A stretch of DNA of 64,000 nt from Octopus vulgaris (lineage: Eukaryota): positions 116,994,001 through 117,058,000 of the forward strand of contig OX597819.1 of the NCBI GenBank assembly GCA_951406725.2. The letters are read 5' to 3'. Of this stretch, positions 12,934 through 56,915 are shown piece after piece (position 1 is the first letter of the stretch; each line of letters begins with the position of its first letter). Position numbers and translations under genes: made by a program. The notes under the pieces are model-generated. The model searched no databases, was not told the DNA's origin, and was given only the letters and a program-made list of their open reading frames with translations.

Positions 12934-13043
12934 TCTCTGAAGAGGCCGTGGGGCATCCTTCTTAATGCCTCATTTATACCTGCCTTTATGGCTTATAGGT
13001 TAAATGAGGTATGACTGCCCTTACTGCCGAAACAGCTGTCAGA
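12934..13043 (+). ncRNA. Type I hammerhead ribozyme motif (H1, long stem II)
   Basis: tct-CTGAAGA-ggc...gcc-GAAA-cagctg-TC-aga. Stem I is tct/aga, stem II is closed by ggc/gcc, and stem III is the palindrome ACAGCTGT. Predicted cleavage is after 13040. Confidence 0.78.
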
Positions 13044-13403
13044 TATGATATAATTACATATTATATTTTATATTTTATATTTCTATTTCCTTGTCAATTT
13101 ATATTTACTTTATATTTTGTATAATGCCTTTACTGATATGTAATGGTGTAATAAAGTATTGATTGGGTATCATCTGATAGTTGATGTTTTATTGATTTAA
13201 GTATGTTTCTCCATTTTCTAATTTTGTAGTATTAATTTACGGTAATATTATTACCTTTGCCCATATAATACAATAGATGAACTAATTGCTTGGCAATTTT
13301 TAACATCTATGTATTAGTCTTGTTGGGTACCTATCTAGCAGTATATTGGATATATGTTATCCCATGGTGGGTTGAATTTTTCAACCCCTATCTCATTTTA
13401 TAA

Positions 13404-13476
<73 letters not shown>

Positions 13477-14303
13477 CATTATTTTCCTCTTTTACTCGTT
13501 TCAGCAATGCGGCTGTGGCCATACTGGACCACCGCGTATATATATATATATGTATATGTGTGTTTGTATGCGTGCGTGGGTGCGTGAGTATGCTTGTGGA
13601 TGTGTCTGTGTGTAGAAATATGTATGTATGTATGTATCTATCTATCTGTATTTCTATCAATCTATCTGTTTATCGATCTCTATATGTATTTGTCTAATAA
13701 ATAATTTCTAGAAAGAAAAGATTTATAGATTCTTAATGAAGTTATATATTACTCTATAGAATTAAGCTTGCAGGTATTCAATGCACGTTTGCGTTTCACT
13801 GGGAAATAATAGATACAGTTTGTGCTGTAATATTAGTACTTAAGCATCCGTAAATATAAAGTCTGTAATACTAATTTCGTTATATTTCAGTCATACTTAT
13901 CTGGAAGTTCAATGAGCTCCCGCTGGTACTTGCAACTCAGAGATTGTTAATTTGATACACACATTTCGAGTAGAATTATTTCGGTGAACCAGCTTTCTTC
14001 CTATGAGGATGAAAATGGTGATTTACATATTTTCTAAGAACAATGATCATTAAATTACGAAGCCATAAACATCTTAATTGGTATAAGTTATAATTTGCTT
14101 ATAGCAAATTTTATAACAACTCTTCTTCCTGAGTAATACGTGAAACTAGAATTTTAGATTAATAAATACAAACTTGCGTGTCAGATTTTGAATATTTCGC
14201 GGTATGTAACAATAGTAGTGTTACCCGGCATGCAATGATTGAATTGGGAGGCATATATTTCACATTATGATTATCAAAATCAATTATAGCATACATACAA
14301 TGG

Positions 14304-14533
14304 TTACTCTTTACACTCTTTACTCTTTTACTTGTTTCAGTCATTTGACTGCGGCCATGCTGGAGCACCGCCTTTAGTCGAGCAAATCGACCCCGGGACT
14401 TATTCTTTGTAAGCCCAGTACTTGTTCTATCGGTCTCTTTTGCCGAACCGCTAGGTGACGGGGACATAAACACACCAGCATCGGTTGTCAAGCAATGCTA
14501 GGGGGACAAACACACACACACAAACACACACAC

Positions 14534-14602
<69 letters not shown>

Positions 14603-14767
14603 TACGAGAGACTTCTTTCAGTTTCCGTCTACCAAATCCACTCACAAGGCATTGGTCGGCCTGGGGCTATAGCAGAAGACACTTGCCCAAGATGCCACGC
14701 AGTGGGACTGAACCCGGAACCATGTGGTTGGTTAGCAAGCTACTTACCACACAGCCACTCCTGCGCC
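14304..14767 (-). mobile_element. SINE family A, full length
   Basis: Near-identical to 10101-10565 outside the internal microsatellite. Confidence 0.92.
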
Positions 14768-15931
14768 TTATAATTTAATTTTTATCAAATTGTTTGGTAC
14801 TTACAGAAAGGTAATGCCATATATTCTAGAATAAGCGTGTATGTTAGTATGCGTTATTCGTGTTTATTTTCTTGCTTTTTGTTGCACGTATCTTACAGTT
14901 CTGTTTCCCAAAGTCATATTAAAATCTTAATGTTATTTTTTGAATCCATGTAAAAATTTCTGCGAAACATGAATGCCGATATAATCAAATAATTTCTCTT
15001 TTTTATAAACTGAGATGTTATCCAATGGGATTAGATCATTTTAAGATTAATAATATTATATTTCGTTTTTGTATGTTTCTCTGAGGCGTGTATGTACACA
15101 CACACACGATGCACATTATATATATATACATACATACATACATATACACTTATAGGGTTAGATACATACATTCTTAGATTTGTAGATAGATCGTTAGATA
15201 CACAGAACAACTGAATAAATCTTCTATAATTGAATATATATTGTGTACAAACTATATAAGATTGCTTTAGTTATTTGTTTACAAAATTGAAAGTAGATTG
15301 CAAAGAGGATTTAAATGTGTTTACAGTATTAAATATGTTTTATAATGATTCTAAAGCAACGTTAACTTGGCAATTAATATTATATTTGAGACAGATATAT
15401 TAGAAACAATTGCAATGCCATTATAAATAGCGCAGAAATATTCGGCAATGTTTTTTTTTGTTTTAGATTTCAATATATTTTTCACATGTAATTAATTTGC
15501 GTCTAATAATAAATATTAATATTGAATAAACAAAATATTGCCATGCATCATTCTTGTGTACACGAGGGATTTCGCTAAATATGTTAAATTTGTTAAAAAA
15601 GATTTTTTAAGAGGAAAATAAATACTGTTAATCATAATTAGTAAAAGTAAACAGACAAAAAATATTAAAATATTGCAACTAAATGTTAAATCTTAATTCT
15701 AATATCAAACATATTGTTAAACATACTCTTCTATACGTTTCAGCCAGGCGGCTGCGGTCATGCTGGAGCACCTCTGCGAATATATTTCCTATATAACTAT
15801 GCATAGAACGAGTTATTTGCATCGACTTCCATTAACGACTCAAATAGCAGGTTGTAATTGTCACGGCGCTTTAAGATTTGAGTTCAGCTTCCTATTATGT
15901 AGACTTATGCGATTCTTCTTTCTAAGCCCAA

Positions 15932-16200
15932 TCTCTCTATATATAAAACTGAGAATGTGTGTCTATCTGTGTGAATCCCTGAAACTTGAGAACTACACAA
16001 CCAAATTCATTCAGATTTTACACATGCCTTACTTAGGGTCCACGGTGTGGAATGAGCTCGCTCTGGATGCAATTGGGCCCGCTGTCCACGGCTACGGGAC
16101 CACAGTGAGCGCTATGGCTCGGCTCGGCTCGGCTAAATACCTAACTAAACAGCGACAACTCCATTAGGTCATACAAAATTTATAATCCCTACCGTCTTCC
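15932..16200 (+). mobile_element. Possible Helitron 5' fragment
   Basis: a|tctctctatatataaaactgagaatgtgtgtc resembles the 5' end of the Helitron at 46319. No 3' hairpin/CTAG was found, so the right boundary is uncertain. Confidence 0.4.
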
Positions 16201-16738
16201 GTAGTGTAATATAAAAGTAAAAGCTATTAATCACATTATTTCAATCGATCAAACAGGATTAAACACTAACGTTAATAAAATTACAACAAAGAGACAAGTA
16301 AACCAATGTCCATTGTATCGGTATTAATTTTAAATTACAATAACTAACTTATATGATAAATTGCGATCAATCTTCCAATCCATATAAATAATAAGCCCAC
16401 CGGTCTTTCATATATAATACTATAATGAAAGTTCCAGCCTTATAAGCTTTTTCAAAAACAAAACACGATTGAAATTAACTTAACATATATTTTTATGTGT
16501 GAAAAACATTATTTCATCTTTCATAAGTTTATAATAAAACAATACTTACTCATTAATATATCACCACTACTAGTTATAATATTAAATTACCAGTGACTAA
16601 CATAAACTTAAATTTTATTAAATAGGAAGTAATAAAAATACATATAAATCATTATTAAAAACCATATGTTTAAAGTTAATTAAACTGTTTAAAAGATCAT
16701 AAAATTTATATACATATATATATATATATATCTTTAAA

Positions 16739-16932
16739 TGTTATAATTTAGAACAAACAGTAAGGGGTTGTCTTTAGAATATTCGGAGTTACGTATGTAT
16801 CGTAGCTCTTTGTTCCGTATTTCGAAACTCCGAGTACTATAATGACCAACTTCTATTGTTTGTTCTAAATTATAAAACATGCAAATAATCCTCTATTTAT
16901 CTAATATCGAGGTCTCATTCATTTGTTGTTAC

Positions 16933-16940
<8 letters not shown>
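16739..16940 (+). mobile_element. Short fold-back element related to the 57.2 kb family, retaining only the 3' half of a hammerhead
   Basis: tgttataatttagaacaaacag...ttcggagtt is inverted to aactccgag...ttgtttgttctaaattataaaaca. It contains cGAAActccgagTA. The tail cctctatttatctaatatcgaggtctc matches the reverse complement of about 57205-57235. Confidence 0.6.
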
Positions 16941-16981
<41 letters not shown>

Positions 16982-17002
16982 TATATATCGGAGTTAGATA
17001 AG

Positions 17003-17428: not shown

Positions 17429-17479
<51 letters not shown>

Positions 17480-20358: not shown

Positions 20359-20662
20359 TTATTTATATATATTCAGCTAAGAAAAGAAATGGAGCAACAA
20401 TTAACAATTGGAAGTTGATCATTGGTATTAATTTAGCTTAATTATAGTTCAAGATTTAACGATTTTTTTCCCTTTTTAACTTCTTTTTCATTTTCATATT
20501 TCTCCGATAATATATTTCTAACGTTTGTTAAATGGAACGAGATAAATACAAATTTACTTCGAAATAAGAAGCTGAAACAGCTGTAAATGTTCTTTGAACT
20601 ACAGTTAGACTATGAACTTTTAATACCAATGATGAACTTCTAATTATTCTTAGCTGAATATA
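20358..20662 (+). mobile_element. Degenerate fold-back element with hammerhead remnant
   Basis: Terminal inverted repeat tatattcagctaagaa / ttcttagctgaatata and inner inverted repeat aattggaagttgatcattggtattaa / ttaataccaatgatgaacttctaatt. ccgataa at 20504-20510 and GAAAcagctgTA at 20574-20585. Abuts (TA)n. Confidence 0.55.
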
Positions 20663-21990: not shown

Positions 21991-22359
21991 CATACATGTG
22001 TATACATACATATATATATATATCCAATATAGGAGAAAATTTCTCGAAAAAAATTACATCAACGGCCAGCATATTAAAAAACACCCTTAAAGGTTAAATT
22101 CACAAACAATTTATATGTAAGGGCAAAAGAAAAAACCTCCAATGCCAAAATATGCCGAAAATAGACACAACGTCAATATATACACACACACATGCACACA
22201 CACACATACACACTCGCATATATATATATATAGATATATATTGTTATATTTCGGAATGGTCATTTTGCCAGTTTAGCCAATAAAAACACACGCACTATAT
22301 ATTTGGTGTTATTTTGCTTCAGTGTTATTTATTTTTTACGTTATTGTTAATCTTAGTTC

Positions 22360-22403
22360 GGCCAGAGTTCTTTCGTCACACTCCTGTGACTGCATCAGTG
22401 GTC
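22360..22403 (-). ncRNA. Hammerhead-like motif, variant core (H2)
   Basis: Minus strand: gacca-CTGATGCA-gtcac aggagt gtgac-GAAA-gaac-TC-tggcc. Confidence 0.5.
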
Positions 22404-22676
22404 CTTTGTTTTCTTCTTTCTTATTTGTGTCTCTCCTTACTAACCGTCAGCCATTTTGTATTTCTATTGTATGCTTTCATTTGCGCATGCTTATATCTCT
22501 ATGTGCGTCTATGTTTGTTTAGTGTGTGTATGTGGGGGGATGCCTGTAATATTTGTATCTTCTGTTTGTAGATGCACATAGAGACATAAGCATGCGCAAA
22601 TGAAAACATACAATAGAAATACAAAATGGCTGACGGTTAGTAAGGAGAGACACAAATAAGAAAGAAGAAAACAAAG

Positions 22677-22720
22677 GACCACTGATGCGGTCACAGGAGT
22701 GTGACGAAAGAACTCTGGCC
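22677..22720 (+). ncRNA. Hammerhead-like motif, variant core (H2)
   Basis: gacca-CTGATGCG-gtcac aggagt gtgac-GAAA-gaac-TC-tggcc. Stem I is cca/tgg and stem II is gtcac/gtgac. Confidence 0.5.
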
Positions 22721-22910
22721 GCAACAAGATTAAGATTAATTTAAAAAATAAATAACACTGAAGCAAAATAACACCAGATATATAGTGCATGTGTTTTTAT
22801 TGGCTAAACTGGCAATATGACCATTCCAAAATATAACAATATCTGTTTCAACACACGACTTCACATAAAAATTCTTGCACAACAATACATATATATATAT
22901 ATATATATAT

Positions 22911-24428
22911 ATGTTAATAAAATAGAACATATGCATATATATAAACATATATGTACGTACCTACCTCTACATGTACATATACACGCATATATGTGTACAG
23001 GACACCAAAAAGACGTCGAACACATAGAGAGACGAAAAACATAGATACAAACCAAGGAACAAGACAAGCAAAAAAAGAGATACAGGACAATAAGCACAAC
23101 GAAAAATCCCCTTCTTCAGTCGCTAAGGTTTCACCTACTAAACGTTTCGAAGGATAAAAGCGAGACGTATACTTCGAAGAAAACTTCCTTCCTGCGAAAA
23201 GCAAATCAATTAAAATTCTGAGATCTTTTCGCAGAGGGGTAAAAAAAGCAAGACGGTAACGACAGTACAAACATATAAACAGTAAAAAATATATATATAA
23301 ACAGTGGAAAAATAAATATATAACAGTGAGAGACAGGACAAGGAGAACAAGATAAGAAGGGCTGTTAACGCCAGACGAAAAAGTATTGCAAACGCTGGAT
23401 TATAGTGGACGACGAGAGAGAAAGAATGTCGACCAGTAGCCTTTGAAGGCGGGCGAGAAAAGACAGGATAGCAGTTACGACGGAAGTATCGTCGCAGATG
23501 GACGACGGGAATGGGGGAGGAGGAGCAAGAGGAAGAGAGAGAAGAAGGGGAATGGTGCGAGGAGACCATGAAGAACGGTGAGGGGGAGAGAGAGAGGAAG
23601 AGACAAGTTAAGTGAGGGAAAAAAGACGAAAAAGGGAATGGGAGAGAAAGAAAGAAAGATGCAGAGTCGCGTGAGAGTTAATATCAAGGCTAACTTGATA
23701 AACAGAACAATCTTACTTAATAGGGTGCGTGCGTTTAGTCGTATAATATGTTAATAAAATAGAACATATGCATATATATAAACATATATGTACGTACCTA
23801 CCTCTACATGTACATATACACGCATATATGTGTACAGGACACCAAAAAGACGTCGAACACATAGAGAGACGAAAAACATAGATACAAACCAAGGAACAAG
23901 ACAAGCAAAAAAAAGAGATACAGGACAATAAGCACAACGAAAAATCCCCTTCTTCAGTCGCTAAGGTTTCATCTACTAAACGTTTCGAAGGATAAAAGCG
24001 AGACGTATACTTCGAAGAAAACTTCCTTCCTGCGAAAAGCAAATCAATTAAAATTCTGAGATCTTTTCGCAGAGGGGTAAAAAACAAGACGGTAACGACA
24101 GTACAAACATATAAACAGTAAAAAATATATATATAAACAGTGGAAAAATAAATATATAACAGTGAGAGACAGGACAAGGAGAACAAGATAAGAAGGGCTG
24201 TTAACGCCAGACGAAAAAAGTATTGCAAACGCTGGATTATAGTGGACGACGAGAGAGAAAGAATGTCGACCAGTAGCCTTTGAAGGCGGGCGAGAAAAGA
24301 CAGGATAGCAGTTACGACGGAAGTATCGACGCAGATGGACGACGGGAAGGGGGAGGAGGAGCAAGAGGAAGAGAGAGAAGAAGGGGAATGGTGCGAGGAG
24401 ACCATGAAGAACGGTGAGGGGGAGAGAG
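22911..24428 (-). mobile_element. Tandem direct repeat of an element of about 680 bp (family H6, pseudo-LTR-like)
   Basis: 22911-23590 and 23748-24428 are nearly identical, with a spacer of about 157 bp and (TA)n on both outer sides. Strand is assigned from hammerhead-like core words on the minus strand. Confidence 0.8.
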
Positions 24429-24451
24429 AACGGTGAGGGGGAGATATATAC

Positions 24452-24488
<37 letters not shown>

Positions 24489-24490
24489 CA

Positions 24491-24582
<92 letters not shown>

Positions 24583-24597
24583 GGTGTGTGTGTGTGT

Positions 24598-25343
24598 GGT
24601 CTGATCAATAACAACCCGGACTGTTGCCATTGGTAACGCATGCATAGTAACAACACTTCGTACAGATTGACTTTGAAATCTGCTGTGCATGCACACTAAG
24701 ATTTGATCTTTTGGCTCACTTTGGCTCTTTACAGCAGTGCTTGGAATAAACGTGTGCAGCGTGTGATCGAGGTATTGAATACGACAGAGAAATGGGAGCA
24801 AAGAATCTGAATCAAATTTTGATTGGCTATACGTGCTGCTCAGAGACTTGATCAAAGTTCTCATAATGTTTTCATGCTTCTCGACACACTGAAGGAGATC
24901 TTGTGCAACTGAAAACCGTGTGTCTTTTTGGTCAGCCGATAGCAATTTTGGCACGAACCTCGCTGATATGCGTCTTATACCCAAATATTCAGTGATAATG
25001 GACTGACCTGAACCGTAACTGAACTGTACATCCTCTGATAAGTGGTGATTTGACGATTTCCTCTTACTGCTGCATGCTCGTGTAAATTCTGTTCTTCAGT
25101 TCTACTGGTTGTGGGTTTCCCAGATCTTTCTTCAATATCAAAAATTTTCGGCCATTTTGGAAACGTCTAAACCGCTCATAAACTTGTGGTGTGATGCTAA
25201 TACACTGTCCTCCATATATTTTTGCAGATTTGTGTAGGCCTCTGAATATGAAGTTCAAAGAAAATCTTTGCCAAGCGACTTTACTCTGTGTTTTTCAGCT
25301 TCATTACTATGACAAAATTCCGGATATTTATTGTCAGACCTAG
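24598..25343 (-). mobile_element. Internally deleted Tc1/mariner transposon
   Basis: Imperfect TIRs ggtctgatcaataacaacccgg (24598-24619) and ggtctgacaataaatatccgg (reverse complement of 25320-25340). Minus strand encodes YERFRRFQNGR (HTH region) and [20 protein letters not shown] (mariner WVPxxL linker). The catalytic domain is absent. Confidence 0.8.
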
Positions 25344-25529: not shown

Positions 25530-26371
25530 GAAAATAGTAAAAAGTGAAAAAAGTACAGAAGGCTTAAAGGTTAAAAAGTATATATATTTGCGTCAATATG
25601 TCTGAAGAATATTAAAAATTATTTTCTTATAATGACATAGTTTAGAAGAAAGAACTGTTTCGCGTTTAGCTTTTCAAATTTCTTACGACGTTATGTTTAT
25701 CTTGAATAGAGTTATCGTTATGTTTATGTTTAAAAGAGTTCTAAATAAGGGGAGGTAATGAGTGATTTCTTCCGGTGTAAGGGAGATAATCGCTTAATTT
25801 TTTTTCCTTTCCCTTGGTGTGAATTTCTCTGTATCAGTATGTTGGCATGGTTAAGTCTGGGCTTATACTTTTCAATGGAGAATGTTTCGTTGTTTAGTCT
25901 AATTTGTGTTGATGATCCGATAGCACATTGGTAAAATGGAAAGATTAAAAATTGTGGTAGAAGTTGCTTTGCGCATTTCTCAATGTGCTCACTAAAAGGT
26001 ATCATTCTGTATTCTGGGAATGCAATCTGTTGTCGATGCAGTGGTAGATCGAACTGTGCAACATGTCCAAACCTGCTAGAAGGATCAGAATTCCTCTTTA
26101 AAGAGTGACAGTAATTCAAGATCAAATCTAACATTACTTGTGCCTCTGAAAACATAATTTATGTCATAAAATGCTCGGGCTGCCACCAAGACTACGTGGG
26201 ATCCACGGGACACACTCAGACGTAGATGCACACTGCATCGACAACAGATTGCATTCCCAGAATACAGAATGATACCTTTTAGTCAGCACATTGAGAAATG
26301 CGCAAAGCAACTACTACCACAATTTTTAATCTTTCCATTTTACCAATGTGCTATCGGATCATCAACACAAA
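25530..26371. mobile_element. Penelope-like GIY-YIG endonuclease fragment with inverted duplication
   Basis: Plus strand from about 26044 reads GRSNCATC...ITCASENIIYVIKCSGCHQDYVGSTG..LRRRCTLHRQQI..PFS.HI..C. Segment 26231-26371 is repeated inverted at 25903-26043, and this continues on the minus strand to ...EKYKPRLN and a 3' UTR. Confidence 0.85.
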
Positions 26372-28718: not shown

Positions 28719-29002
28719 ATCTCAATATGACTAACCACTAAGGGTGGATGTTACTGTAGCTTGTAGCCCCAAGAGAACATCTTCTCCAGCTGGCTATTGA
28801 CACACTTTCTGTGCCCTATCGGTATCAAAGGGAAGTCATCCTTCCCTCGTGAACCTAAGTGATACGCACGGACTGCAGTTTCTGGGTATTGACCCGTCAT
28901 CAGCGCCTGACAATCACCGGTTTTCGATGGAAGGGTCCCATCTTGGGGCTACAAGCTACAGTAAATCCACCCTTAGTGGTTAGCCATATTGAGATGGCAT
29001 AT
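28713..29002 (-). mobile_element. MITE-looking element of about 290 bp with hammerhead (family H3)
   Basis: Terminal inverted repeats of about 62 bp at 28713-28774 and 28941-29002. Abuts (TA)n. A hammerhead lies in the unique centre. Confidence 0.8.
28868..28906 (-). ncRNA. Minimal type I hammerhead ribozyme motif (H3)
   Basis: Minus strand: gcg-CTGATGA-c gggt caat accc a-GAAA-ctgcag-TC-cgt. Stem III is the palindrome ACTGCAGT. The first pair of stem II is a C-A mismatch. Confidence 0.75.
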
Positions 29003-29454: not shown

Positions 29455-29527
29455 CGGTCAGACCTAGGTTTCAAAATTTTTTTAGCAAATAAAATAATTT
29501 GCTAGACTAATGTCTCATCAGTGACCG
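29455..29527 (-). ncRNA. Type I hammerhead ribozyme motif (H4)
   Basis: Minus strand: cggtca-CTGATGA-(42 nt including the hairpin tagcaaat/atttgcta)-GAAA-cctagg-TC-tgaccg. Stem I is a perfect 6 bp and stem III is the palindrome ACCTAGGT. Confidence 0.75.
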
Positions 29528-29991
29528 CGCTATGACACTAATTAAGAGACGAATAACACGTATCTCATCGTTATACACTATATTTTTTTCAAATTCACCG
29601 CGCAAGCGCAGTTTCAGTGGGATGTGAGGGAATAAATTTAAAGATCACTAAATATACATAAAATATAGGGTAGTGAGTTTATTTTATTTAGACATTTAAC
29701 TAACAGTGGCCTAGTATGTATAAAAAGTCAATAGACAACATATTCTCAATAAAAAATAGTGTACATTTAAACACAAGAGAAAATGCCTATAACAGTCAGT
29801 TTTTTTTCACGCTTGAAGTACTCAAAACACATTTAAGAGCAATCTTCAAAAGGAATGAAAAACATTCATTCTCCGCCGACTGAAACTTGCGCTTGCGCAG
29901 TAAGTTTGAAAAATTATAATGTATAACGTTCAGACACGTTTTATTCGTCTCTTAATTATATGTTAGTACTATAGCGGGTTAACTGATGAGA

Positions 29992-30379
29992 GTGGAGGCG
30001 CAATGGCTCAGTGGTTAGGGCAGCGGACTCGCGGTCATAGGATCGCGGTTTCGATTCCCAGACCGGGCGTTGTGAGTGTTTATTGAGCGAAAACACCTAA
30101 AAGCTCCACGAGTCTCCGGCAGGGGATGGTGGTGATCCCTGCTGTAATCTTTCACCACAACTTTCTCTCACTCTTACTTCCTGTTTCTGTTGTACCTGTA
30201 TTTCAAGGGGCCGGCCTTGTCACTCTCTGTGTCACCCTGAATATCCCCGAGAACTACGTTAAGGGTGCACGTGTCTGTGGAGTGCTCAGCCACTTACACG
30301 TTAATTTCACGAGCAGGCTGTTCCGTTGATTCGGATCAACCGGAACCCTCATCGTCGTAACCGACGGAGTGCTTCCATC
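29992..30379 (+). mobile_element. tRNA-derived SINE, family C, with TSD
   Basis: A box tggctcagtgg, B box ggtttcgattcc. TSD aactgatgaga at 29981-29991 and 30380-30390. Near-identical to 62626-63011. Confidence 0.93.
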
Positions 30380-30381: not shown

Positions 30382-30448
30382 CTGATGAGAATTTCGTCTA
30401 GAAAATTATTGTATTTGTTAAATAAAAAATTGAAATCTAGGTCCGACC
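30382..30448 (+). ncRNA. Hammerhead motif (H4), separated from its 5' stem I arm by a SINE
   Basis: CTGATGA-gaatttcg...aaatt-GAAA-tctagg-TC-cgacc. Inverted homolog of 29455-29527. Confidence 0.55.
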
Positions 30449-38661: not shown

Positions 38662-41300
38662 AAAAATAGAAATTGCAAATGCACTGATAATAGTTAAGAT
38701 ATTCAAAGCTTTAACCCGGTTTCAGGTTTTACACTGATTTTCAAAAGGTTCAAATAAAAAGACGTGGTTTATGTCGCAGATATTTTACTTCTGACTAGTG
38801 TATGAAGCTTGCTCTATTTTCAAACATAACGAGTCTTGCAAAGTTCGACCTGTACCTCGACCTCTTAAACCATCTTCCAAAATTCATAGACAATGATACC
38901 GCTATTGTAACTTTTGATGTAGTAAACCTCTATATCACTATCCGAAACTAATATGGACTAGAGGCAATAAAATTGTGGCTTCTGAAATTCCCTCATGAAA
39001 TTGCGGACAGAACTGAAAAGAGTTTCATAACTGTAGGATTAAAGTTTATCCTCGAAAACAACTTTTTTGCCTTCGATGGCAATATTTACAAACAAATATC
39101 TGGGATAGCGATGGGGACAAAATCTGTTTACATGGAGGTCCAGATATTATTTTTTCTCTCCCTAGTTTCAGCTCAGAACTGCGGCCATGCTGATGCACCG
39201 CCGTATTGCTACGCTGTTATTACTGAAAGCCTCCTCTAATATGTGGCACTTGGTGAAGAATGGAGTTTGGTGTAGCTACCCTCATTTGCACCTCGTGCCG
39301 TGAGGTAGGTTCATCTGGAACTCCCGACGGGAAGAGGTACCGCCTTGATTTTAAAATCCCTACCTCTACTTTGTGCAGGTTCTTAAGGCTCTTTGGGAGA
39401 ATATTAAAAAGCTGTGGGCCCTTGAAACACAAGCTGTTGCAGTAACTGGTCCTGAAGCGTGATGGCATTGCTGGGATCTTTGGCACTATGCAGTGTCGTC
39501 CCATTCTGATATTGGCGTAGCTTTCAATGCCAGAATTTGGCAGAATTCCTTCCAGGATCTTACAGATATATATTACTGCATACGTATCCCGTCTTCCCTC
39601 CAGGGAGTAGAGTCTTAGAATATAAATTAAAGTATGACTTGATCTTACACAAATATCAACTGCAAAATTGGAAACGTTACTTTGATGACTGCGTAATCCT
39701 ATGAATGCACACATTTGGAAAGTCTAGTTGACAACATAAATAATAATATTAACTTTATCATGGAATACAATAAAACTCATCTACCATTCCTGCATATAGT
39801 GATCTTCGAAAGAGATAAAAACTTTGAAACATATATCCACTATACAGATTCTAAAGAGTAATTAACTATCCTCATGCCAATAATATTTATTCTAGCAAGA
39901 AGAATCTGCACAATTGTATCAAAACCGGAATCTCTCAATAGAAAGCTCCAGGAACTAAAACAGGTATTACTTAAAAGACAATATCCATTAATGTTTATAG
40001 ACAAAAGAGTAATACTGCCAAAGCAATAAATATCGAGGAAGTACGGAAAACGATAAACGATCCAGATACATCCAATACTCTCTACCCTTTATTACACAGC
40101 TCAAGAAACACAGTGTTTTACAATATTATCCACCAGAATATCCCACTATTAAAACATGACCCAAGAATGAAACACACATTAGAAATACACAAAACAATCA
40201 AAAGTAAAAGACAATGAAATTTACCACCCCGTTAAATTCCTCACAAATTACCTTCCCAAATTCCTACATTTACCGTCAAAAAGTGTGGTCGCCCCATGTA
40301 CGGGACTTGCATCAACCTTATTGGGGACACAGCATAAGCTTCTAATATGAACAAATTTTTACCGTAAAAATCACTTTACATGTTCTTAAGCAAATTTAAT
40401 ATCCGCAATGAAATGTTAAGGATGTAATGAAAATTACATCGGTCAAACAAAGCTTACTCTAAGAAATAGACTGGTCATTTACCGACAACAAATATAAGAC
40501 GCCAGTAGTAGACAGACTCCGCTGAGTGGACACATAGATATATGCAAAAATTACCTCGTCCAAATTTCAGGTCTCCCCACTCGACGTATGTTCAGTGAAT
40601 ACGACAGGTGAAACACGGCTAGACAAAAATATACTTTCATACAAAAGTATAAACCAAGGCTTAACAAACTATTCAGCCAGAAAACTCATCCTGGCACTTA
40701 TCATGAAGAACCTACACAACTAACAACCTAAACGTTAACCATTGGATTACATACAAGCGAATCATGTCCACTCTCCCACCAGACAGATTAAATTTGGAAT
40801 GCCTTGACTGTAACTAAACATGTTCACTAAACCGTGTCGGTATTCCAGTTAGGCGCAAAATACACTCTCACGTGACACTAACGCACGGGTGTAGCGGGAA
40901 ACGCACAAAAGTTTATAGACTTAATCATTCGTTCATTCTGAACAAACACTTGACAGAATATATTCAGAGCATTGATTGTCAGCCTTTACTTACGACACCA
41001 TATATTGTCACTTGACGCACGAAGACGTAGTGGAGAACCTACAAAAAATTCTTAGAGCAGGCATGTGACTATCCTCAACCGAAAGAATCCTATTCGAAAC
41101 ATATACTACTTTGAGCCATGAACTCCCTATATAAAAAGGTCCAACACTAGTCAGAAGCAAGACAGCTGCCACTTGAGCCATGTCTTTCTATTTGAAATGT
41201 TTTGAAAATAAGTGTAAACTGTGTAACCGTTTAAAGCTTTACATATATAAATAAAGAATATTTTAATTATTCTCAAAGCGTTTTCATCTTCTATTTTTCT
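38661..41300 (+). mobile_element. Decayed Penelope-like retroelement (RT plus GIY-YIG) with inverted pseudo-LTR
   Basis: RT: IVTFDVVNLY, FILENNFFAFDGNIYKQISGIAMGT, NWKRYFDDC, INFIME...LPFL. Endonuclease: KCGRP..GTC, C*GCNENYIGQTKLTLRNRL..YRQQI, PLSGHI, FIQKYKPRLN (40280-40670). Segment 38661-38770 is an inverted copy of 41173-41300. Confidence 0.88.
39147..39618 (-). mobile_element. CR1-like LINE 3' end nested inside the Penelope RT
   Basis: LRLYSLEGRRDTYAVIYICKILEGILPN...FKGPQLFNILPK, homologous to 49250-49715 and with the same 3' stem-loop tail. Confidence 0.9.
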
Positions 41301-42017: not shown

Positions 42018-42078
<61 letters not shown>

Positions 42079-42080
<2 letters not shown>

Positions 42081-42747
42081 CTACAAAATTAGAGAATGGA
42101 GAAACATACTTAAATCAGTAAAACATCAACTATCCGATGATACTCAATCCATACTTTAATACACCATTACATATGAGTAAAGGCAATATATAAAATGAAA
42201 TGAGATATACAGTAATAGTAAAAAGATAAAGAGATATAAGTAAAAAATTTCAAATATAATATGCAAATAAATCAAAACTGACAGCTGTTTCGGCAGTGAG
42301 GGCAGTCATACCTCATTTAACCTATAAGCCATAAAGGCAGGTATAAATGAGGCATTAACAAGAGATGCCCCACGGCCTCTTCAGAGAATTAAATTAAATT
42401 TATTATAATAGTGAAAAATATTATATAATCATATACATATAAATATAAAAATATAAAAATGTAAAATATAAAAACTTATACATCATAATGCTACACTTAT
42501 ATAATATAATACACATTTGTACAAAAAGGAAGGTAAACAGAACAAAATAAAACAAAATATATAACAGTGTATATATTAATATTAATAAGTACCGATATTA
42601 TACATATTTGGCTAATAGTTTTTTTTATAAAAAGGCTAACACATATGTAGATGAAAAATAATAATTAAAACCAAGGTACAGTTCATAAACTTCTAAAGCT
42701 ATAAAAGTTAATAAAAATTACTATTAATATTAATAATAATAATAATA

Positions 42748-42798
<51 letters not shown>

Positions 42799-42990
42799 TT
42801 AATAATAATAAAAAATAATAAAAATAGATACAGTTAAGTTAGCACCAAGTCCATCCTTTCAAGATCGAAATAACTATGAGTTAAGAAATGCTGACCACTA
42901 GGTAAAGAAAATTTAGATTAATTCGATTGGCTATTGGTTTGAAATTTAAATCACAAAAGAAAATTATACGGTTGGTTAGTCAGGGAACGC
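42079..42990 (-). mobile_element. Second, non-palindromic copy of family H1
   Basis: Collinear with the reverse complement of 12479-13229. Starts at the same aactacaaaattag boundary after (TA)n. The right boundary is approximate. Confidence 0.85.
42278..42386 (-). ncRNA. Type I hammerhead ribozyme motif (H1)
   Basis: Minus strand: ct-CTGAAGA-ggccgtggggca...tgccctcactgcc-GAAA-cagctg-TC-ag. More conserved than the AT-rich flanks. Confidence 0.75.
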
Positions 42991-48559: not shown

Positions 48560-49726
48560 GAGAAATTGGGAGAATGGCTTCATGACTTTCTGAAGAATAG
48601 AAGTCAGGTGGTAGTAGCCAATTAACACGCAAATAGTGAGCGGTGTTCCGCAGGGCAGTTTTGGGACCACTACTGTTCATAATGGCCCTCTCAGACATGC
48701 CCTCAGCCACGCAGAGAGCCTCGATCACAAGTTATGCAGATGATACAAAAGTTTCACAGGCAATACAGAACCCTGAAGACACTAAGCACCTGCAATGTGA
48801 GCTGGACAAAATATACAAGTGGGCTGAAGAGAATAGCATACAGTTCAATGCTGAAAAGTTTCAAGCTTTATGTTATCAGCATGCAAAGCTGAATGCAATA
48901 CCCAATGAATACACTGGACCCGGAGGGATTGCAATCCCAGAGGCACAATCAGTGCGTGACCTGGGTATTTACATGAGTGATGACGCGACCTTTCATGTAC
49001 ATGTTGCTAAACTGGCAATGAAATGTAGACGGCTGGCTGGCTGGATTCTTAGAACCTTTAGAACAAGAGAACAATAAACCATGATGGTCCTCTGGAAGAC
49101 ACTTGTCCTAAGCCACTTTGACTATTGCTCTCAGCTATGGTCACCATCCAGTGTCAAGTTGATCACAGAACTTGAGGCGATCCAACGAAGGTACACGAAG
49201 AAGATAGCCTCTGTGCAGCATATAAGCTACTGAGAAAGACTCAAGAGATTAAAGCTCTATTCCCTGAAGCGTAGGCGAGAAAGATATGCCATAATATATA
49301 TCTGGAAGATCCTGGAAGGACTTGTCCCAAACTTTGGCATCGAGAGTCACACAAATGCCAGAACCGGGCGCTACTGCGTAGTACCAAGGACTCCAAATTT
49401 GCCATCAAGATGTAGGACAAGATACTGTGATAGCCTGGGCTTCAGAGGCCCACAGCTCTTCAATATCCTCCCGAAGAACCTGAGGGACCTGCATGGTGTA
49501 GATGCGGATGTCTTTAAAGTAGGACTGGATCTCTTCCTGTCAGGTGTCCAGGATGATCCAACTTCACGGCAGGAGGTGCAGATGAGAGCAGCTGCATCGA
49601 ACTCTCTCATGCACCAAATGACAGTTGCTAAAAAGCATTCGTGAGGTAAAATCATGTAGCAAACCAAATGGCGGTGCCCGAGCATGGCCACAGCTCATTA
49701 GCTGAAACTGGAAAAATCAAAATCAA

Positions 49727-51145: not shown

Positions 51146-52857
51146 TTGTGTCTTTCATCCAATACTGCCCGACAGTTTTGCCTTACCCAGATCCAAAGCG
51201 AAGCAGAATGGAATGCTTGCTCAGTGACACTTTGCGTGGAGGAAGCTAAGTCCCGCTGGTCACACAGCCTCTTCGCACTTCGCAATCAAAATCTGCTTCA
51301 CTGAGGATTAGTTATGCCGTGACTAATGAGCAGATACCAGCTAGATCTACGGTGTATCCAGCATTTACTCGATGATGAGTAGCTGTGGTCTCTGGTTGTT
51401 AGAAACCTATTTTTTTCGTACCTCGCCTCTTTCATACCTCGATAAGTTGTAGAAAAAGAAAATATAGCTGGTACATTGAATGCCATCAAACCCTTACAGC
51501 CTCTGTTAATCGGTCAAAGTTGTCGATGGATGTTCCACAGTGAAGACACCGTCGAAGAAAACCAAGGTGTCGATGAAGATCAACTAGTCGGTGTTTACCG
51601 AAAACAAATTAGAGGTGAGGCATATTTATAATTTCTAGAAAGCCCTGGGCTGACATTGCTACCGAGGGACACTGCTACTTTGGGATGAACTCTACATCAG
51701 TAGCGCTTACCCGAAATTGGCGCAGGGTGGCGAAAATGTCCTCTTAGCGTTCGTATATATTAATGAGTTGTACGTTTAATAGTTGCGATTACGTTTAGGA
51801 TGGCTTTCATCCGACCCAATCGTGAAGATCACATTTCAACTTACGTTTTGCCTCCAGGGTGGGGTGTTATCCTCAGTTTGGTTTTATAGGGAATGTAAGT
51901 TAAAATATAGAAGACGGGCTCTCTACTCATTGTCCAAAATCACGTCGAAAAATAAAATGAAATAGAGTGGAATGTATTGAGAGAGATGTGCTGCCTCCGA
52001 CTAAATTTGAAGACATTTGGTTGAATGTGGAGACGATGACTCGAATGAAGGGTCATACTGTAACCTGGCGCTTGCATGCTGTGTGGTGGGGAGAGAGACG
52101 CCAATGCCATTTACCACCTTTTATGCAGTATTGTTTGGGATTTCTGAGCCAACTGGTTAGTGTTCCTCCCACAATGGAGAATTTTGTTATAATTTTTCTC
52201 ATCAGTTATTCTTTACGCGTTTTTCCTATAAACCTTCACTGAGCTTCGTCTTTGTATAGTCTTAAATACATTTTCAGGATTTGTGGATAATGAATATACT
52301 ATTTTAACTTTTAGCCTTAGCGTTATTATTCTTATTAGTAATAATTAATGTAAGGAAATGATGGAATGGCTAGCGCTCCGGACGAAATGCTTAGCTCAAT
52401 GTCTCACCCGTTTTTATGGTCCGTCATTCACATTGTTTTCATCCTTTCGTGGTACATAAAATAAGTATTAGCTGACCACTACAGTTGATGTGATCCAATC
52501 AAACAGTCCAATCAAATTCATACACTTGTGGCTGTAGAAGAAATAATTCTAGTTATTATCACAGCAGTGAGTTGGTAGGCTCGTTTGTGTTTCGGACAAA
52601 AATGTTAGGTGCTATTTCTTATGGATCTTTATATCAAGATTTCAGATACCGCCAATTTCAACTTCTCCCTTTATTCTTACTACATTCAGCTCTTCAGGAA
52701 CGAGAGAATTGCAATAACATAACATGTAATATTTTAGGTATTTGATCGTTAGATTCCAAAGTTTGAATTGTTAGCCTCCTTTTTAATCCGTAAAGGAGAC
52801 AATAGATAGATAAAGGGGATTTTAAATTCTTTCATCTCAAGTGTCAAGACATAGACC

Positions 52858-52917
<60 letters not shown>

Positions 52918-52919
<2 letters not shown>

Positions 52920-53530
52920 GCCCTGATGCAGTACCAATGCCCTGATGCAGTACCAATGCCCTGATGCAGTACCAATGCCCTGATGCAGTACCAGGCAGTG
53001 GCTCTCATGGCTTCTGATCTTAACTGATTGGAAGTGTTATCATGTACATTGTTTCGTCTTGGTATAAAAGATGGGCTACAGCAAATATTCTGCTCAATAC
53101 CACAGATTTGCTTGTCAGTTGTTTGACCTTAACCAGTTGAGCATGTCCCTTAGTGGCTGACGATATGTGCATCTCTGATCACGAGCAGAAGTAGTGGGGG
53201 AGCATCATAGCCATGTGTTGAGAAGGATTCTTTGGGGTTTGAATAATTCACCTCTGGAAACATGGGTGTTTCGTTCAACGTCCTTAAACAAGCCTTATTC
53301 AGGGACCTTTTGAGCGGGATGGGTTACTCGATCTGAAGGAAATTCTAACTGGGCTCCACCTGCAAGGTCATGTGCTGTTTATCTTGATATGAGATCACCA
53401 TGTCGCGCACATATGGTTGTGATGCATGAGCCTGGTGTACCCTTATCAGACGGGTAGTCATGATGGGTATACTGGGCTTCGTATATTTTACCCCAGTGTC
53501 ACTTCGATGGCATGCTCTGCTCGCTCACTC
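52918..53530 (-). mobile_element. Interspersed retroposon-like repeat in (AAT)n with terminal 19-bp x4 reiteration
   Basis: Flanked by (AAT)n at 52858-52913 and 53531-53551. atgccctgatgcagtacca x4 at 52918-52993. Strand is inferred. Confidence 0.7.
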
Positions 53531-55531
53531 AATAATAATAATAATAATAATAGAAGTGAATATGTAAATAAGTGCAAGTCTGATGATTATTCTTCTATCT
53601 CGAAATCGATATCCATTAATTCTCTTTAATTGATAACATTTAATTGTACGCACTCTTTCTGTTTCTATTAGAGGAAATCGTAGACATATCCTACTGGACA
53701 CCTATCATCTATGAAGCATGTATGAGACATTCTAGGTAAAAAAAGATATATTACATTATATAATAATCTCAATAGAAAGTTACATCTTTGGGAAGCTGAC
53801 GGTTACTTCACGGGCTTCCAATAAATTTTCTTCTTAGCTAAAAACAACTTACGTTAAAATATCAACAAGATATCTTTGGCTATCCATTTCGTCGACTTAG
53901 GGACCATGGTTTTTCCAGATTCGGATATGGTAACATTCGATTATGTCATTTCCAAATTTGGCTTGAAATGTTTAAACTAAATGAAATTGGTCATTCGACT
54001 TTTAATATCTAATAATGGGCTAGCATGTGGTGAACATTTCTAGTTAGTATTTCATCAATATAATGAAATCCATGTATTAGGATTCGATCTACGTTATATA
54101 AAAAAAATACGATGTGGGTTCTTGTAGTCCGCTACAGTGCAAAGTGTAAAAAATTCTCATAGATTCAATGTGACGTAAAATATGCAACACAAGTGCTTAC
54201 AAATTAAGGGAATAAAATGACAAAATTCTTTTTTGTGTGTGTCCTACATATGTTTATATTGGTGTATATAAGCAAGTGTAAACTACTTTTGTCAAAGCTA
54301 TGAAATGCAAGGAGGAGAGAAAATATGCCATTCTACATCACATATTGCATGTATTTCCAGTATAATTGAAAGAGGAAGGAAGTGAATAACTGGATTGAAA
54401 GATAAATTATTAAAGGTGGGGACAATGATGATGATTTGGGGATGGAAATAAAAATGAGGTGTGGATGATGGCGATAAACATGATGATAAAGATGATGACA
54501 ATAACATCGTGGCTAGTAATATTGATTATAATAATGATAATGATGAAGAAATACGTCTACGAAGAAAAGGGATAGAAACAGGCTATTGGTAATAGAAAAA
54601 AAAGAGGAAATAAGGGGATACTATGGATGCAGAATTTTCAATGCAGTATATATTTATACATTTATATATGTATATAAGGTAAGTTTCTTCTCATAAAGAT
54701 ATCAAAAACGAGCTCTCCTTCGAAGCGGCATCTTTTGAATGAAATGAAAGAAATAAGAAAGAAAAGGAAATTAAAAGGAAAAGGGAAAATGGCAAAATGG
54801 AGAAAATAAGAAATACTCATGATATTGTTGGGCATTTATTGAGATTGAAATCGTTTCTAGATGTGTTATTTCTGTATTTTTTTCTTTGTATTAAATCGAA
54901 AATAACATTGTGAGACAGAAACAGAAAATGATATCACAAAGAACAAAAAATAGCACGAAGTGAAATTTATTACAAAGGGATTACATAAAAATAGTTGTAA
55001 TAATAACTCTGTGTATGAGTGTGTGTATGTGTGTCTGTGTATGAATGTGCTTGGGTTTGTCTATTAGCTTATTCTCACTCACACATGTAAACACACACAC
55101 ACATACACACACACAGACACACACATATGCGTACATGTATAGAGAAAAAAACAGTGGGAGAAGAAATATTTTTTTACCAGTGTTTGAGTTACTAATACTT
55201 TTTTCATGTTATATTAAGCTATTTTCGTCAGAGGCAAATATGATTTATGCGAAATATTTCAGACATCTATAATCTAATGCTATCATAAAATTACAAGTTT
55301 TCTTACGATACTATCGAAGCACAAATAAATATGTCCAAGTTTTACTCTCGTCAAAAAACGTAGAGCAGGACTCTCGAAAATATCTTGAATAAGATATATT
55401 AATATATAAATTGTTGTATGTATGTATATATGTATGTATATATTTATATATATATATATATATATATATGTATCTATTTATGTAAGTATATATATGTGTG
55501 TATATATATATATATGTATCTCCCACTCTCT

Positions 55532-55567
<36 letters not shown>

Positions 55568-56178
55568 CATACATATATACATACGTACACACGCACACAT
55601 GTATACAAGTCAGTGGACAAACAGAAGAAGAGAAATCAAGACATTTATAAAAGACATTACATGTATGTAACAAAAGACTTTGTTTCTTCAAATGATTCTG
55701 TGCTACTTACAGTTTCAAAGCTCGTGAAATATATCGGCGGGCACTGAAAATCATGATATATATGACGACTCATATATTAGGGCGTTGTACACAGGATCGC
55801 TTCATTGTGATTTCAATTACTTGTTCAATTACTTTGTGATGTGTTCTTGAGCGAAACTCTTCATCTCTCGTTGCTGTGCGCTCACTTCGAAACGATGTAC
55901 CTGTTCGGGCAACGTCGATTTTTTGATAGAGCGAGTACGATGCGAAAATGTATGGGATTATTTTAAGCAAATGATTTCTGTAAGTTGTTCAGCGAAAGCT
56001 CAATACACATATTTCGTCTTCGACGGGAGGGTCCGACGCGCGCGCACACACACACACACACATACAATTTAAACATAGGATAAAATCTTTAAGAATTTAT
56101 CATCAAGTAGTTAACGTGAAAAATATCATAAGGGAAACAATTATTAATTATTCCCTTTAAATACATTTATTTATATTG

Positions 56179-56310
56179 AGGACATTACTATACATAAATG
56201 TCTCACGCTAGGAGGGATGCTTAAAGTGAAAACAATGAAAATGTTTATTACGGTAGTTTTGACTTTAATAGTCCCTCCTAGCGTGAGGCATTTATGTATA
56301 GTAATGCCCT
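56179..56310. repeat. Inverted repeat with arms of about 55 bp next to (TA)n
   Basis: aggacattactatacataaatgtctcacgctaggaggga...aaagtgaaaac / gttttgacttt...tccctcctagcgtgaggcatttatgtatagtaatgccct. Confidence 0.85.
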
Positions 56311-56316
56311 TGCTAA

Positions 56317-56369
<53 letters not shown>

Positions 56370-56656
56370 TAACAATAAAGGGTGAAATTAATTAATTTGG
56401 AATAATTATTAATTACACCAAGTAGATTTCGGCATGTAAAAGCCTCATTCGAGGAAAATTTAAGTAATACTAAGCAATTAAGGGTTTAGCAACGAATTGC
56501 CTCACCACACACCGAATTTAGAAATACCAGTCAAAGAGATATAGCTATTCCTTCTGCTAAAAGGGAGATCTCAGTAAAAACACAGCACTTGAAAGGCAAA
56601 CACAGACAGGTAAGAAAGAATGAAATGACGGCAATCTATCATACAATTTTAAGTTA

Positions 56657-56748
56657 CCTACGGACGTACGTTTCGAAATCAAGTTTTAGGAAAGCATAAG
56701 AATTAGAAAATTCTACCTTACCCAAACTTCTTTTCTCATCGGCGTAGG
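56657..56748 (-). ncRNA. Type I hammerhead ribozyme motif (H5)
   Basis: Reverse complement of 56827-56915 with 3 extra nt in stem II. Confidence 0.78.
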
Positions 56749-56826
56749 ATACTACAAGTATGAATAATTGTATAATGCCTTCTAGTATCTCAAAATTTAA
56801 TATACAATTATTCATAATTGTAGTAT

Positions 56827-56915
56827 CCTACGCCGATGAGAAAAGTTTGGGTAAGGTAGAATTTTCTAATTCTTATGCTTTCCTAAAACTTGATTTCGAA
56901 ACGTACGTCCGTAGG
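56827..56915 (+). ncRNA. Type I hammerhead ribozyme motif (H5, U4C core)
   Basis: cctacg-CCGATGA-gaaa...tttc-GAAA-cgtacg-TC-cgtagg. Stem I is a perfect 6 bp, stem II is closed by gaaa/tttc, and stem III is the palindrome ACGTACGT. Predicted cleavage is after 56909. Confidence 0.8.

What the first reader, a model, noticed from the sequence alone, without database searches (positions are those of the whole stretch)
13029..56909. Four families, four different perfect 8-nt palindromes in stem III
Seen: ACAGCTGT (H1, also 20.57 kb), ACTGCAGT (H3), ACCTAGGT (H4) and ACGTACGT (H5). H7 and the 16.8 kb element have near-palindromes. The sequence changes but self-complementarity is kept. Known: minimal type I hammerheads with palindromic stem III loops are proposed to cleave as dimers. 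Inference: selection for dimeric activity, with family-specific palindromes possibly restricting pairing to the same family.
Basis: partly seen in the sequence, partly recalled or inferred. Interest (0 to 1): 0.7.

Follow-up and report, generated by a model that had tools for sequence, protein, structure and literature searches.

The report
Penelope hammerheads with reused dimer palindromes
The four palindromes are real and sit in hammerhead-shaped RNA motifs of Penelope-type jumping genes, where they likely let two copies pair up to cut RNA, as already published; unrelated families reuse the same palindromes, so they are not family barcodes on their own.

Summary
Observation confirmed. ACAGCTGT, ACTGCAGT, ACCTAGGT and ACGTACGT are stem III of type I hammerheads in Penelope-like elements (PLEs) and their non-coding derivatives; H1's parent has Hydra-clade motifs. 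Only the inner four bases are informative. They are palindromic in 32 of 41 families sampled from this genome (background 0.10). The two adjacent central bases are Watson-Crick complementary in 36 of 41 (shuffle mean 10.5), which no single hairpin can explain, and sister families switch palindromes by compensatory changes. This supports pairing between two copies: the published double-hammerhead model. The 'family-specific' part fails as stated. ACAGCTGT serves 6 families, including the unrelated element at 20.57 kb, and 13 of the 16 possible AC-N4-GT words are in use. Stem III plus stem I together make 587 of 595 family pairs incompatible, but compatible pairs are not rarer than chance (8 against 3.5), and stem III changes no faster than stem I. 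The window's own twins are inverted, on opposite strands, and likely inert. Cleavage was not tested. The scan reached the same verdict earlier in another genome (e1-8664523).

The parts
11909..13320 (.). H1 insertion: tail-out inverted pair of 5'-truncated ends (pLTR region) of a Hydra-type Penelope-like element; mirrored arms 11909-12452 and 12688-13230, right arm running on as a one-sided extension, left end beside (TA)n
   Evidence: 82-88% identical to ORF-bearing copies L060/L061/L052
12934..13043 (+). H1 type I hammerhead: stem I TCT/AGA, core CTGAAGA 12937-12943, 85-nt stem II domain, GAA 13029, stem III palindrome ACAGCTGT 13032-13039, C17 at 13040
   Evidence: 444 family pattern matches, control 0, 99 of 100 listed keep the 8-mer
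12096..12206 (-). H1 inverted twin hammerhead, palindrome at 12100-12107
42277..42387 (-). third H1-family hammerhead (other subfamily), palindrome at 42281-42288, within a PLE end at about 42060-42950
20523..20589 (+). core-deleted hammerhead of an unrelated repeat family using the same ACAGCTGT (20577-20584); intact relatives have core CYGATGA, stem II GTTTGTTA/TAACAAAC and stem I CATT/AATG
   Evidence: G14
28868..28906 (-). H3 hammerhead: core 28903-28897, 14-nt stem II domain, palindrome ACTGCAGT 28872-28879; in a short non-coding element with a small inverted arm beside (TA)n; sister of a 353-nt tandem family with ACTCGAGT
29455..29527 (-). H4 hammerhead: 6-bp stem I, core 29521-29515, decayed base of stem II, palindrome ACCTAGGT 29462-29469
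   Evidence: 7 of 13 family pattern matches keep the 8-mer
30382..30448 (+). H4 inverted twin, decayed: 8-mer ATCTAGGT, stem I broken
56467..57067 (.). H5 insertion: tail-out inverted pair of truncated units of a ~589-nt non-coding tandem repeat family, right end on (TA)n
56827..56915 (+). H5 hammerhead: stem I CCTACG/CGTAGG, core CCGATGA 56833-56839, 58-nt stem II domain, palindrome ACGTACGT 56901-56908
   Evidence: 522 family matches, control 0, 93 of 100 listed keep the 8-mer
56657..56748 (-). H5 inverted twin hammerhead, palindrome at 56664-56671
57278..57338 (-). H7 hammerhead with 9-nt stem III; family word ACTCGGAGT (4-1-4 symmetric), window copy decayed at one base
16821..16843 (+). 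3' half of a hammerhead (GAA ACTCCGAGT A), core absent, inside a small foldback 16741-16875

Best explanation
The palindromes are stem III of type I hammerhead motifs in the terminal repeats of Penelope-like retrotransposons and their non-coding derivatives, and they are likely kept by selection because two copies pair through them into a double hammerhead that is predicted to cut the RNA. SHOWN: hammerhead anatomy; PLE parentage of H1 (RT plus C-terminal GIY-YIG, Hydra motifs); palindromy far above chance across families; complementarity of the two adjacent central bases; compensatory switches between sister families; two same-strand copies per unit in ORF-bearing elements and in tandem arrays; reuse of the same words by different families. 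INFERRED: on a transcript with two same-strand copies (pLTR-ORF-pLTR, or a tandem array as in H5) the 8-mers form one 8-bp duplex and the stem I strands swap, both sites are cut, and a unit-length RNA is released that could be circularised and reverse-transcribed (the published model). A lone copy has only a 2-bp hairpin and is likely slow. Families drift among about 16 equivalent words. Most family pairs end up incompatible through stem III plus stem I, likely as a by-product of divergence rather than a selected barcode. The window's own copies are truncated, inverted, opposite-strand twins and are likely inert.
For: Inner 4 nt palindromic in 32 of 41 families, background 0.103; positions 3/6 WC in 37 of 41 (shuffle mean 16.3, max 27) and adjacent positions 4/5 WC in 36 of 41 (mean 10.5, max 23 of 20000 shuffles). 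First 100 rows of an unselected genome pattern with the inner 4 free: 77 perfect, 12 G.U, 7 ACCGAGGT, 4 broken (counted by eye). Sister switches: TGCA/TCGA/TCGG/CCGG at 71-76% identity, GTAC/GCGC, CTAG/CATG, ATAT/ATGT/ACGT. In the H3 group with near-identical flanks: 64 TCGA, 16 TGCA, 2 of the intermediate TCCA, 0 TGGA of 100 rows (by eye). Modelled dimer is 11-15 kcal/mol better than two monomers; 2-bp hairpins cost +2.0 to +2.9 against duplexes of -9.8 to -11.4. Same-strand pairs flank ORFs (L060/L061, L263); 49 of 100 listed H5 copies lie in ~589-nt tandems (by eye). H1 parent has RWR, DKT, YRDD, CxCx5C, YIG and CxxC, matching the Hydra description in PMC8557442. Published dimer model: PMC4209133, PMC6765202.
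Against: No cleavage or dimer was observed. Families are related, so the shuffles overstate significance, and most loci were picked by a pattern fixing AC..GT or by hand. A 2-bp stem III with tetraloop is described as typical of invertebrate hammerheads that cut well, and single-repeat coral and mussel constructs self-cleaved (PMC7229834), so dimerisation may help rather than be obligatory. Eight of nine Xenopus dimer elements did not cleave in vitro (bioRxiv 10.64898/2026.07.22.740005). For H1, half the listed copies are solo, 23 pairs are inverted and only 2 are same-strand within 12 kb (by eye). Some switches (ACGATCGT to ACAATTGT) can arise by CpG decay. Six of 41 clusters are not self-complementary, some being decayed or mis-registered single copies. 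The nearest-neighbour energies ignore tertiary contacts, and for H1, H3 and the H3 sister the dimer is no better than alternative monomer folds. Pfam and PDB searches did not recognise the RT; PLE assignment rests on motifs, layout and an ESM Atlas lead.
Confidence: 0.78

Rival explanations
1. Selected self-recognition code: lineages switch palindrome and/or stem I in order to avoid pairing with, and being cut by, other families.
For: The four window families are predicted not to cross-pair (heterodimer penalty 9-28 kcal/mol). 587 of 595 family pairs are incompatible. 0 of 5 nearest-sister pairs remain fully compatible. The TCGA to TGCA switch needs two transversions through a mismatched state that is rare among copies.
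Against: Words are shared by 2-6 families and 13 of 16 are in use. Fully compatible pairs number 8 against a shuffle mean of 3.5, so there is no repulsion; families sharing a word share stem I more often (6 of 44 against 22 of 551). Inner stem III pairs change at the same rate as stem I pairs (4 of 10, 6 of 15). H1 with G19 is modelled as stable as the homodimers. Cis pairing in tandems needs no family code.
Confidence: 0.1
2. The hammerheads cut mainly as monomers with a 2-bp stem III and tetraloop, helped by tertiary contacts or proteins; the palindrome serves only a faster optional dimer or is inherited from dimer-dependent ancestors.
For: PMC7229834 describes a two-pair helix III with tetraloop as typical of invertebrate hammerheads and reports cleavage of single-repeat constructs. 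Many H1 copies have no same-strand partner.
Against: Repeated compensatory changes at the adjacent central bases mean symmetry was still under selection when these families arose. The monomer stem III has modelled probability under 0.03 for H1, H3 and H5. The 4-nt ACGT families cannot form a hairpin at all.
Confidence: 0.08
3. The symmetry has a DNA-level cause: a site for a dimeric DNA-binding protein in the pLTR promoter (many words contain CANNTG, an E-box by recall), or palindrome correction by template switching during reverse transcription.
For: 22 of 41 families have A/T at positions 3/6, giving CANNTG. These elements make inverted junctions often.
Against: At least 13 different words, plus 4-, 6-, 9- and 12-nt versions, always registered on A15.1-U16.1. 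G.U and central GA/GA variants are fixed in some families, which suits RNA duplexes. Flanking 4-mers are palindromic at only 0.103.
Confidence: 0.04

Closest known systems
Minimal and palindromic-helix-III type I hammerheads in pLTRs of metazoan Penelope-like elements (Cervera and de la Pena 2014, PMC4209133; Lunse, Weinberg and Breaker 2016, seen only as a title and through review PMC6765202)
   Same: Type I topology, 1-2 bp helix III with palindromic loop, many families per genome with covariation, location in PLE terminal repeats, proposed dimer cleavage.
   Different: Here mostly 8-nt words with long (40-100 nt) stem II domains, and frequent mismatches at the base of stem II. The family-level counts of word reuse and cross-compatibility were not in the passages I read.
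Hydra clade of C-terminal EN+ PLEs (Craig et al. 2021, PMC8557442)
   Same: H1's parent has RW(R), DKT, CxCx5C, CxxC, C-terminal GIY-YIG, canonical hammerhead, (TA)n targets, inverted 5'-truncated copy and one-sided extension.
   Different: RWR or RWA instead of RWK. No tree was built. The copies examined are frameshifted.
Animal non-LTR retrozymes (Cervera and de la Pena 2020, PMC7229834; Li, Clavereau and Pollet 2026, bioRxiv 10.64898/2026.07.22.740005)
   Same: H5 (~589-nt units) and the H3 sister family (353-nt units) are non-coding tandem repeats with one type I hammerhead per unit.
   Different: The H5 unit is longer than the 170-400 nt reported. Arrays here often run outwards from a central inversion. 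Circular RNA was not shown.
Double-hammerhead of newt satellite and avocado sunblotch viroid (Forster et al. 1988, seen only as cited in PMC4209133 and PMC6765202)
   Same: Unstable stem III rescued by pairing of two hammerheads.
   Different: Stem III here has two base pairs plus a tetraloop, slightly more stable as a monomer.

Membership tests
Type I hammerhead ribozyme | Core CUGANGA...GAAA...NUH with stems I-III, ends in stem I | tested here: met
   H1, H3 and H4 have CTGANGA, H5 has CCGATGA; H4's stem II base is decayed; 20.57 kb and 16.8 kb lack the core
Type I hammerhead ribozyme | Compensatory changes in stems across relatives | tested here: met
   Stem I changes in H5, H4 and H3 sister groups; stem II changes in the H3 and H5 families
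Type I hammerhead ribozyme | G10.1-C11.1 pair at the base of stem II | tested here: inconclusive
   Present in H1 and H5; the H3 family has an A before GAAA and the 20.57-kb family U.U
Type I hammerhead ribozyme | Self-cleavage after H17 | not testable with these tools
   Only contigs of runs guessed to be RNA were available
Dimer-type (palindromic stem III) PLE hammerheads | Short stem III with self-complementary loop conserved by covariation | tested here: met
Dimer-type (palindromic stem III) PLE hammerheads | Two same-strand copies available on one transcript | tested here: inconclusive
   Met at DNA level for families (L060/L061, L263, H5 arrays). Not met for the window's twins, which are inverted; the only same-strand H1 copies are 30 kb apart. 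Transcripts not shown.
Dimer-type (palindromic stem III) PLE hammerheads | Faster cleavage as dimer than as monomer | not testable with these tools
   Only folding energies
Hydra-clade Penelope-like element (H1 parent) | RT with C-terminal GIY-YIG; RWK, DKT, CxCx5C, CxxC motifs | tested here: met
   L060: RWR, DKT, YRDD, CNCRNKNKC, YIG, CSLC against the description; Pfam gave no RT hit
Hydra-clade Penelope-like element (H1 parent) | pLTRs, inverted 5'-truncated copy, one-sided tail, (TA)n target | tested here: met
Hydra-clade Penelope-like element (H1 parent) | Phylogenetic placement of the RT | not tested
   No reference Hydra sequences fetched, no tree built
Non-LTR retrozyme (H5, H3 group) | Non-coding tandem units with one type I hammerhead each | tested here: met
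   H5 spacing 583-591 nt, no ORF of 110 aa or more in L243; H3 sister 353 nt. H3 itself was mostly seen as solo or inverted copies.
Non-LTR retrozyme (H5, H3 group) | Expressed as linear and circular unit RNAs | not testable with these tools
Family-specific dimerisation code | Each family has its own palindrome | tested here: not met
   11 words among 31 families, ACAGCTGT in 6
Family-specific dimerisation code | Cross-compatible families rarer than chance, or stem III evolving faster than other stems | tested here: not met
   8 compatible pairs against 3.5 expected; 4 of 10 against 6 of 15 pairs changed, only 5 sister pairs

The most novel reading that the evidence does not exclude
Stem III palindrome and stem I together form a two-part self/non-self code for retrotransposon RNAs: dozens of co-resident families are almost wholly orthogonal (587 of 595 pairs), and a double transversion such as TCGA to TGCA in the H3 group marks the birth of a lineage that escapes trans-cleavage or decoy pairing by its parent, while families that keep the code (H1 and G19) can cut each other's RNA in trans.
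Probability: 0.1. Interest if true: 0.7.

Novelty: new member of a known kind. Interest (0 to 1): 0.27.

Why it matters
As it stands it is a clean genomic confirmation of a published model: complementarity between two adjacent loop bases can only be used between two copies, so it is in vivo evidence of selection for dimeric hammerheads in PLEs, whose function is still open. The genome also offers natural reagent pairs for testing partner specificity: same word with different stem I (H1 and the 20.57-kb family), same stem I region with different word (H3 and its TCGA sister), and both shared (H1 and G19). If the code were selected, it would be a case of kin recognition among retrotransposon RNAs and a natural set of orthogonal two-part ribozymes.

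Tried and rejected
Rfam scan: no hammerhead among the 150 of 190 matches listed. My first scans missed H1 because stem II is 85 nt. I first took 20.57 kb for a chance match; rejected, it is a decayed hammerhead of another family. ACTGACGT looked like a non-palindromic exception but is the start of a 12-nt palindrome. RNA evidence: no RNA holder listed; contigs of four runs guessed to be RNA cover the H5 unit in pieces but cannot show ends, strand or circles; not used either way. Pfam and PDB sequence searches of the PLE proteins gave no useful hit. In one search the H4 core and H7 coordinates were mis-set, so its stem I and ensemble values for H4 and H7 are not used (H4 redone). One search crashed and was rerun. 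The Lunse et al. paper is not held. Two searches for a published family-code or heterodimer claim returned nothing relevant among the listed titles; some searches found the papers cited. I opened no supplementary files; those of PMC8557442 and PMC4209133 may list these very motifs. Hammerhead-like sites at 1763 (+) and 35955 (-) had weak stems and no relatives in the sample and were left unresolved.
Full report
1. Observation. Each lies between GAA and C17 of a type I hammerhead: H1 (core 12937, 85-nt stem II domain, 3-bp stem I), H3 (core 28903 minus), H4 (core 29521 minus) and H5 (core CCGATGA, 56833). A self-blast links none of the four families to another. H1 and H5 each have a near-perfect inverted twin, H4 a decayed one, and H1 a third copy at 42.3 kb. 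The 20.57-kb site is a repeat (310 candidates) whose four fetched relatives carry core, stem II and the same ACAGCTGT; the window copy has lost the core. H7 and the 16.8-kb element have 9-nt words symmetric around one unpaired base.

2. Chance. The first and last base of each 8-mer are A15.1-U16.1 and the next pair is stem III, both needed by any hammerhead, so only the inner four bases test the idea. I scanned 100 unselected 10-kb stretches of the same genome with stem III free: 18 hammerheads against 1 in reversed sequence, with words of 4, 6, 8 and more bases. A scan for 8-nt stem III found 11 perfect palindromes in 15 places of that sample. Genome-wide patterns fixing only AC..GT gave 1870, 12388 and 8551 matches against 195, 2191 and 674 in controls. 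In the first 100 rows, counted by eye, 77 were perfect, 12 used G.U, 7 were ACCGAGGT (central GA/GA) and 4 were broken. Pooling all loci held (random, pattern-selected, and 40 regions I picked by eye, deliberately including non-palindromic rows, many of which failed the stem filter) gave 166 distinct places, 0 in reversed controls, and 41 clusters: 31 perfect, 4 G.U, 6 neither. The inner 4-mer was palindromic in 32 of 41 against a background of 0.103. Positions 3/6 were complementary in 37 of 41 and positions 4/5 in 36 of 41 (shuffle means 16.3 and 10.5). Clusters are related and the threshold is arbitrary, so these are not independent trials. Still, positions 4 and 5 are neighbours and cannot pair within one hairpin; their covariation (AT 12, GC 11, TA 7, CG 6) points to pairing between two copies.

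3. What the elements are. The window is G000:C6:116994001-117058000 in a 2.8-Gb genome; earlier scan notes call it an octopus. H1 has 444 pattern matches; 99 of 100 listed keep the word; by eye 23 pairs are tail-out inverted, 2 same-strand within 12 kb, 50 solo. Long copies hold an RT frame and a GIY-YIG frame between two same-strand hammerheads (L060/L061, interrupted by a LINE-like insertion). The protein has RWR, DKT, YRDD, CxCx5C, YIG and CxxC, as in the Hydra clade (PMC8557442, section read). The inverted truncated copy, one-sided extension and (TA)n target match that paper's description (passages). Pfam and PDB did not recognise the protein; for a related element (L263) the ESM Atlas returned eukaryotic clusters, some with RVT_1 in 16-20% of members, a lead only. 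H5 has 522 matches, 93 of 100 listed keep the word, and 49 of 100 lie in ~589-nt tandems (by eye); the array fetched has no long ORF. H3 is a short non-coding element, 22 of 24 distinct copies keeping ACTGCAGT, sister to a 353-nt tandem family. H4 is older: 7 of 13 matches keep the word; no ORF-bearing parent was sought for it.

4. Compensatory evolution. Sister families alignable at 59-76% differ by double changes: TGCA/TCGA/TCGG/CCGG, GTAC/GCGC, CTAG/CATG, ATAT/ATGT/ACGT (groups chosen by me). One pattern spanning H3 and its sisters gave 1007 matches, control 0; of 100 rows 64 were TCGA, 16 TGCA, 2 the intermediate TCCA (one inverted insertion), 0 TGGA, and 18 other variants (by eye). Some switches could start from CpG decay; the transversion pairs cannot.

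5. Mechanism. A 2-bp hairpin costs +2.0 to +2.9 kcal/mol, the symmetric duplex gives -9.8 to -11.4, and a modelled cis double hammerhead beats two monomers by 11-15 kcal/mol in 11 of 11 motifs. For H1, H3 and the H3 sister, alternative folds are about as good or better. In the dimer the stem I strands also swap, so partner choice depends on both stems. The inferred cycle is the published one: a transcript with two same-strand copies cuts at both and releases a unit RNA (PMC4209133, passages and Discussion; review PMC6765202, passages). The window's twins are on opposite strands, and a read-through RNA would fold into hairpins with over 90% of bases paired, so they are likely inert. Against an obligatory dimer: PMC7229834 (passages and one section) calls a two-pair helix III with tetraloop typical of invertebrate hammerheads and shows cleavage of single repeats, though the axolotl motif of that build cut much better as a dimer; and 8 of 9 Xenopus dimers did not cut (bioRxiv 10.64898/2026.07.22.740005, abstract and passages).

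6. Family specificity. The four window families are predicted not to cross-pair (penalty 9-28 kcal/mol). But 31 families use only 11 words: ACAGCTGT 6, ACTGCAGT 3, ACCTAGGT 2, ACGTACGT 2, and 13 of 16 possible AC-N4-GT words were seen. Among 35 self-complementary families, 73 of 595 pairs have a fully paired stem III and 8 are also compatible in stem I on both sides; shuffling the words gives 3.5 on average, so compatible pairs are if anything in excess, as shared descent predicts. H1 with G19 is modelled at -1.8 and with G13 at +2.1 kcal/mol relative to homodimers, but with the 20.57-kb family at +9.7, through stem I alone. In 5 nearest-sister pairs chosen by script, 4 of 10 inner pairs and 6 of 15 stem I pairs had changed, and 0 of 5 stayed fully compatible. 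That last count is the one result that keeps a selected code open; the sample is small.

7. Known or new. Palindromic stem III and dimer cleavage in PLE hammerheads are published (above; Lunse et al. 2016 was not held, and is known to me from its title and the review). Searches for a family code or heterodimer claim listed nothing relevant; no supplements were opened. The term E-box and the hammerhead numbering are recalled. An earlier scan report on another genome (e1-8664523) reached the same verdict; it is an AI note, seen after my own tests. Verdict: new members of a known kind; dimer selection supported, family barcode not supported; interest 0.27.

Noticed in passing
L060:3249-3273, L052:4566-4590, L053:7828-7852: The H1 parent PLE has a frameshift at the same site between RT and endonuclease frames in 3 of 3 long copies examined; shared decay, assembly error or recoding not distinguished.
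   Followed up: no
window 22238-22842: Inverted repeat with 274-nt arms (95%); each arm holds a hammerhead-like stretch with an altered core and a 6-nt stem III (read by eye).
   Followed up: no
window 25903-26371: Inverted repeat with 141-nt arms (99%) that reads as the C-terminal GIY-YIG part of another PLE (translation by eye; ORF 25730-26158).
   Followed up: no
H3 family, 20.57-kb family, clusters G9, G13: Many families have a fixed mismatch at the base of stem II (C.A, U.U, A.C or A.A) instead of the G-C pair, including a 9-copy tandem array.
   Followed up: partly
L163, L167 and rows: A family with fixed ACCGAGGT (7 of 7 rows): symmetric with a central GA/GA in a CGAG context, recalled as favouring a stable tandem sheared pair.
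   Followed up: no
L234, L229, L259: A family with a 12-nt stem III palindrome; others have 4-, 6- and 9-nt words.
   Followed up: partly
G000:C1:115911115-115914230 and other rows: Tandem arrays of 353-, ~535- and ~589-nt hammerhead units often run outwards from a central inversion, combining retrozyme-like tandems with PLE-type insertion.
   Followed up: partly
window 1763 (+), 35955 (-): Hammerhead-like cores with weak stems (4-nt and 5-nt stem III words); no relatives in the sample.
   Followed up: partly
window 39164-39723, 48640-49709; 23713-25095: LINE-like RT fragments and a mariner-like transposase fragment by their translations (names recalled); duplication 22999-23506 / 23836-24343; 388-nt repeat 29990-30377 / 62623-63010.
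   Followed up: no
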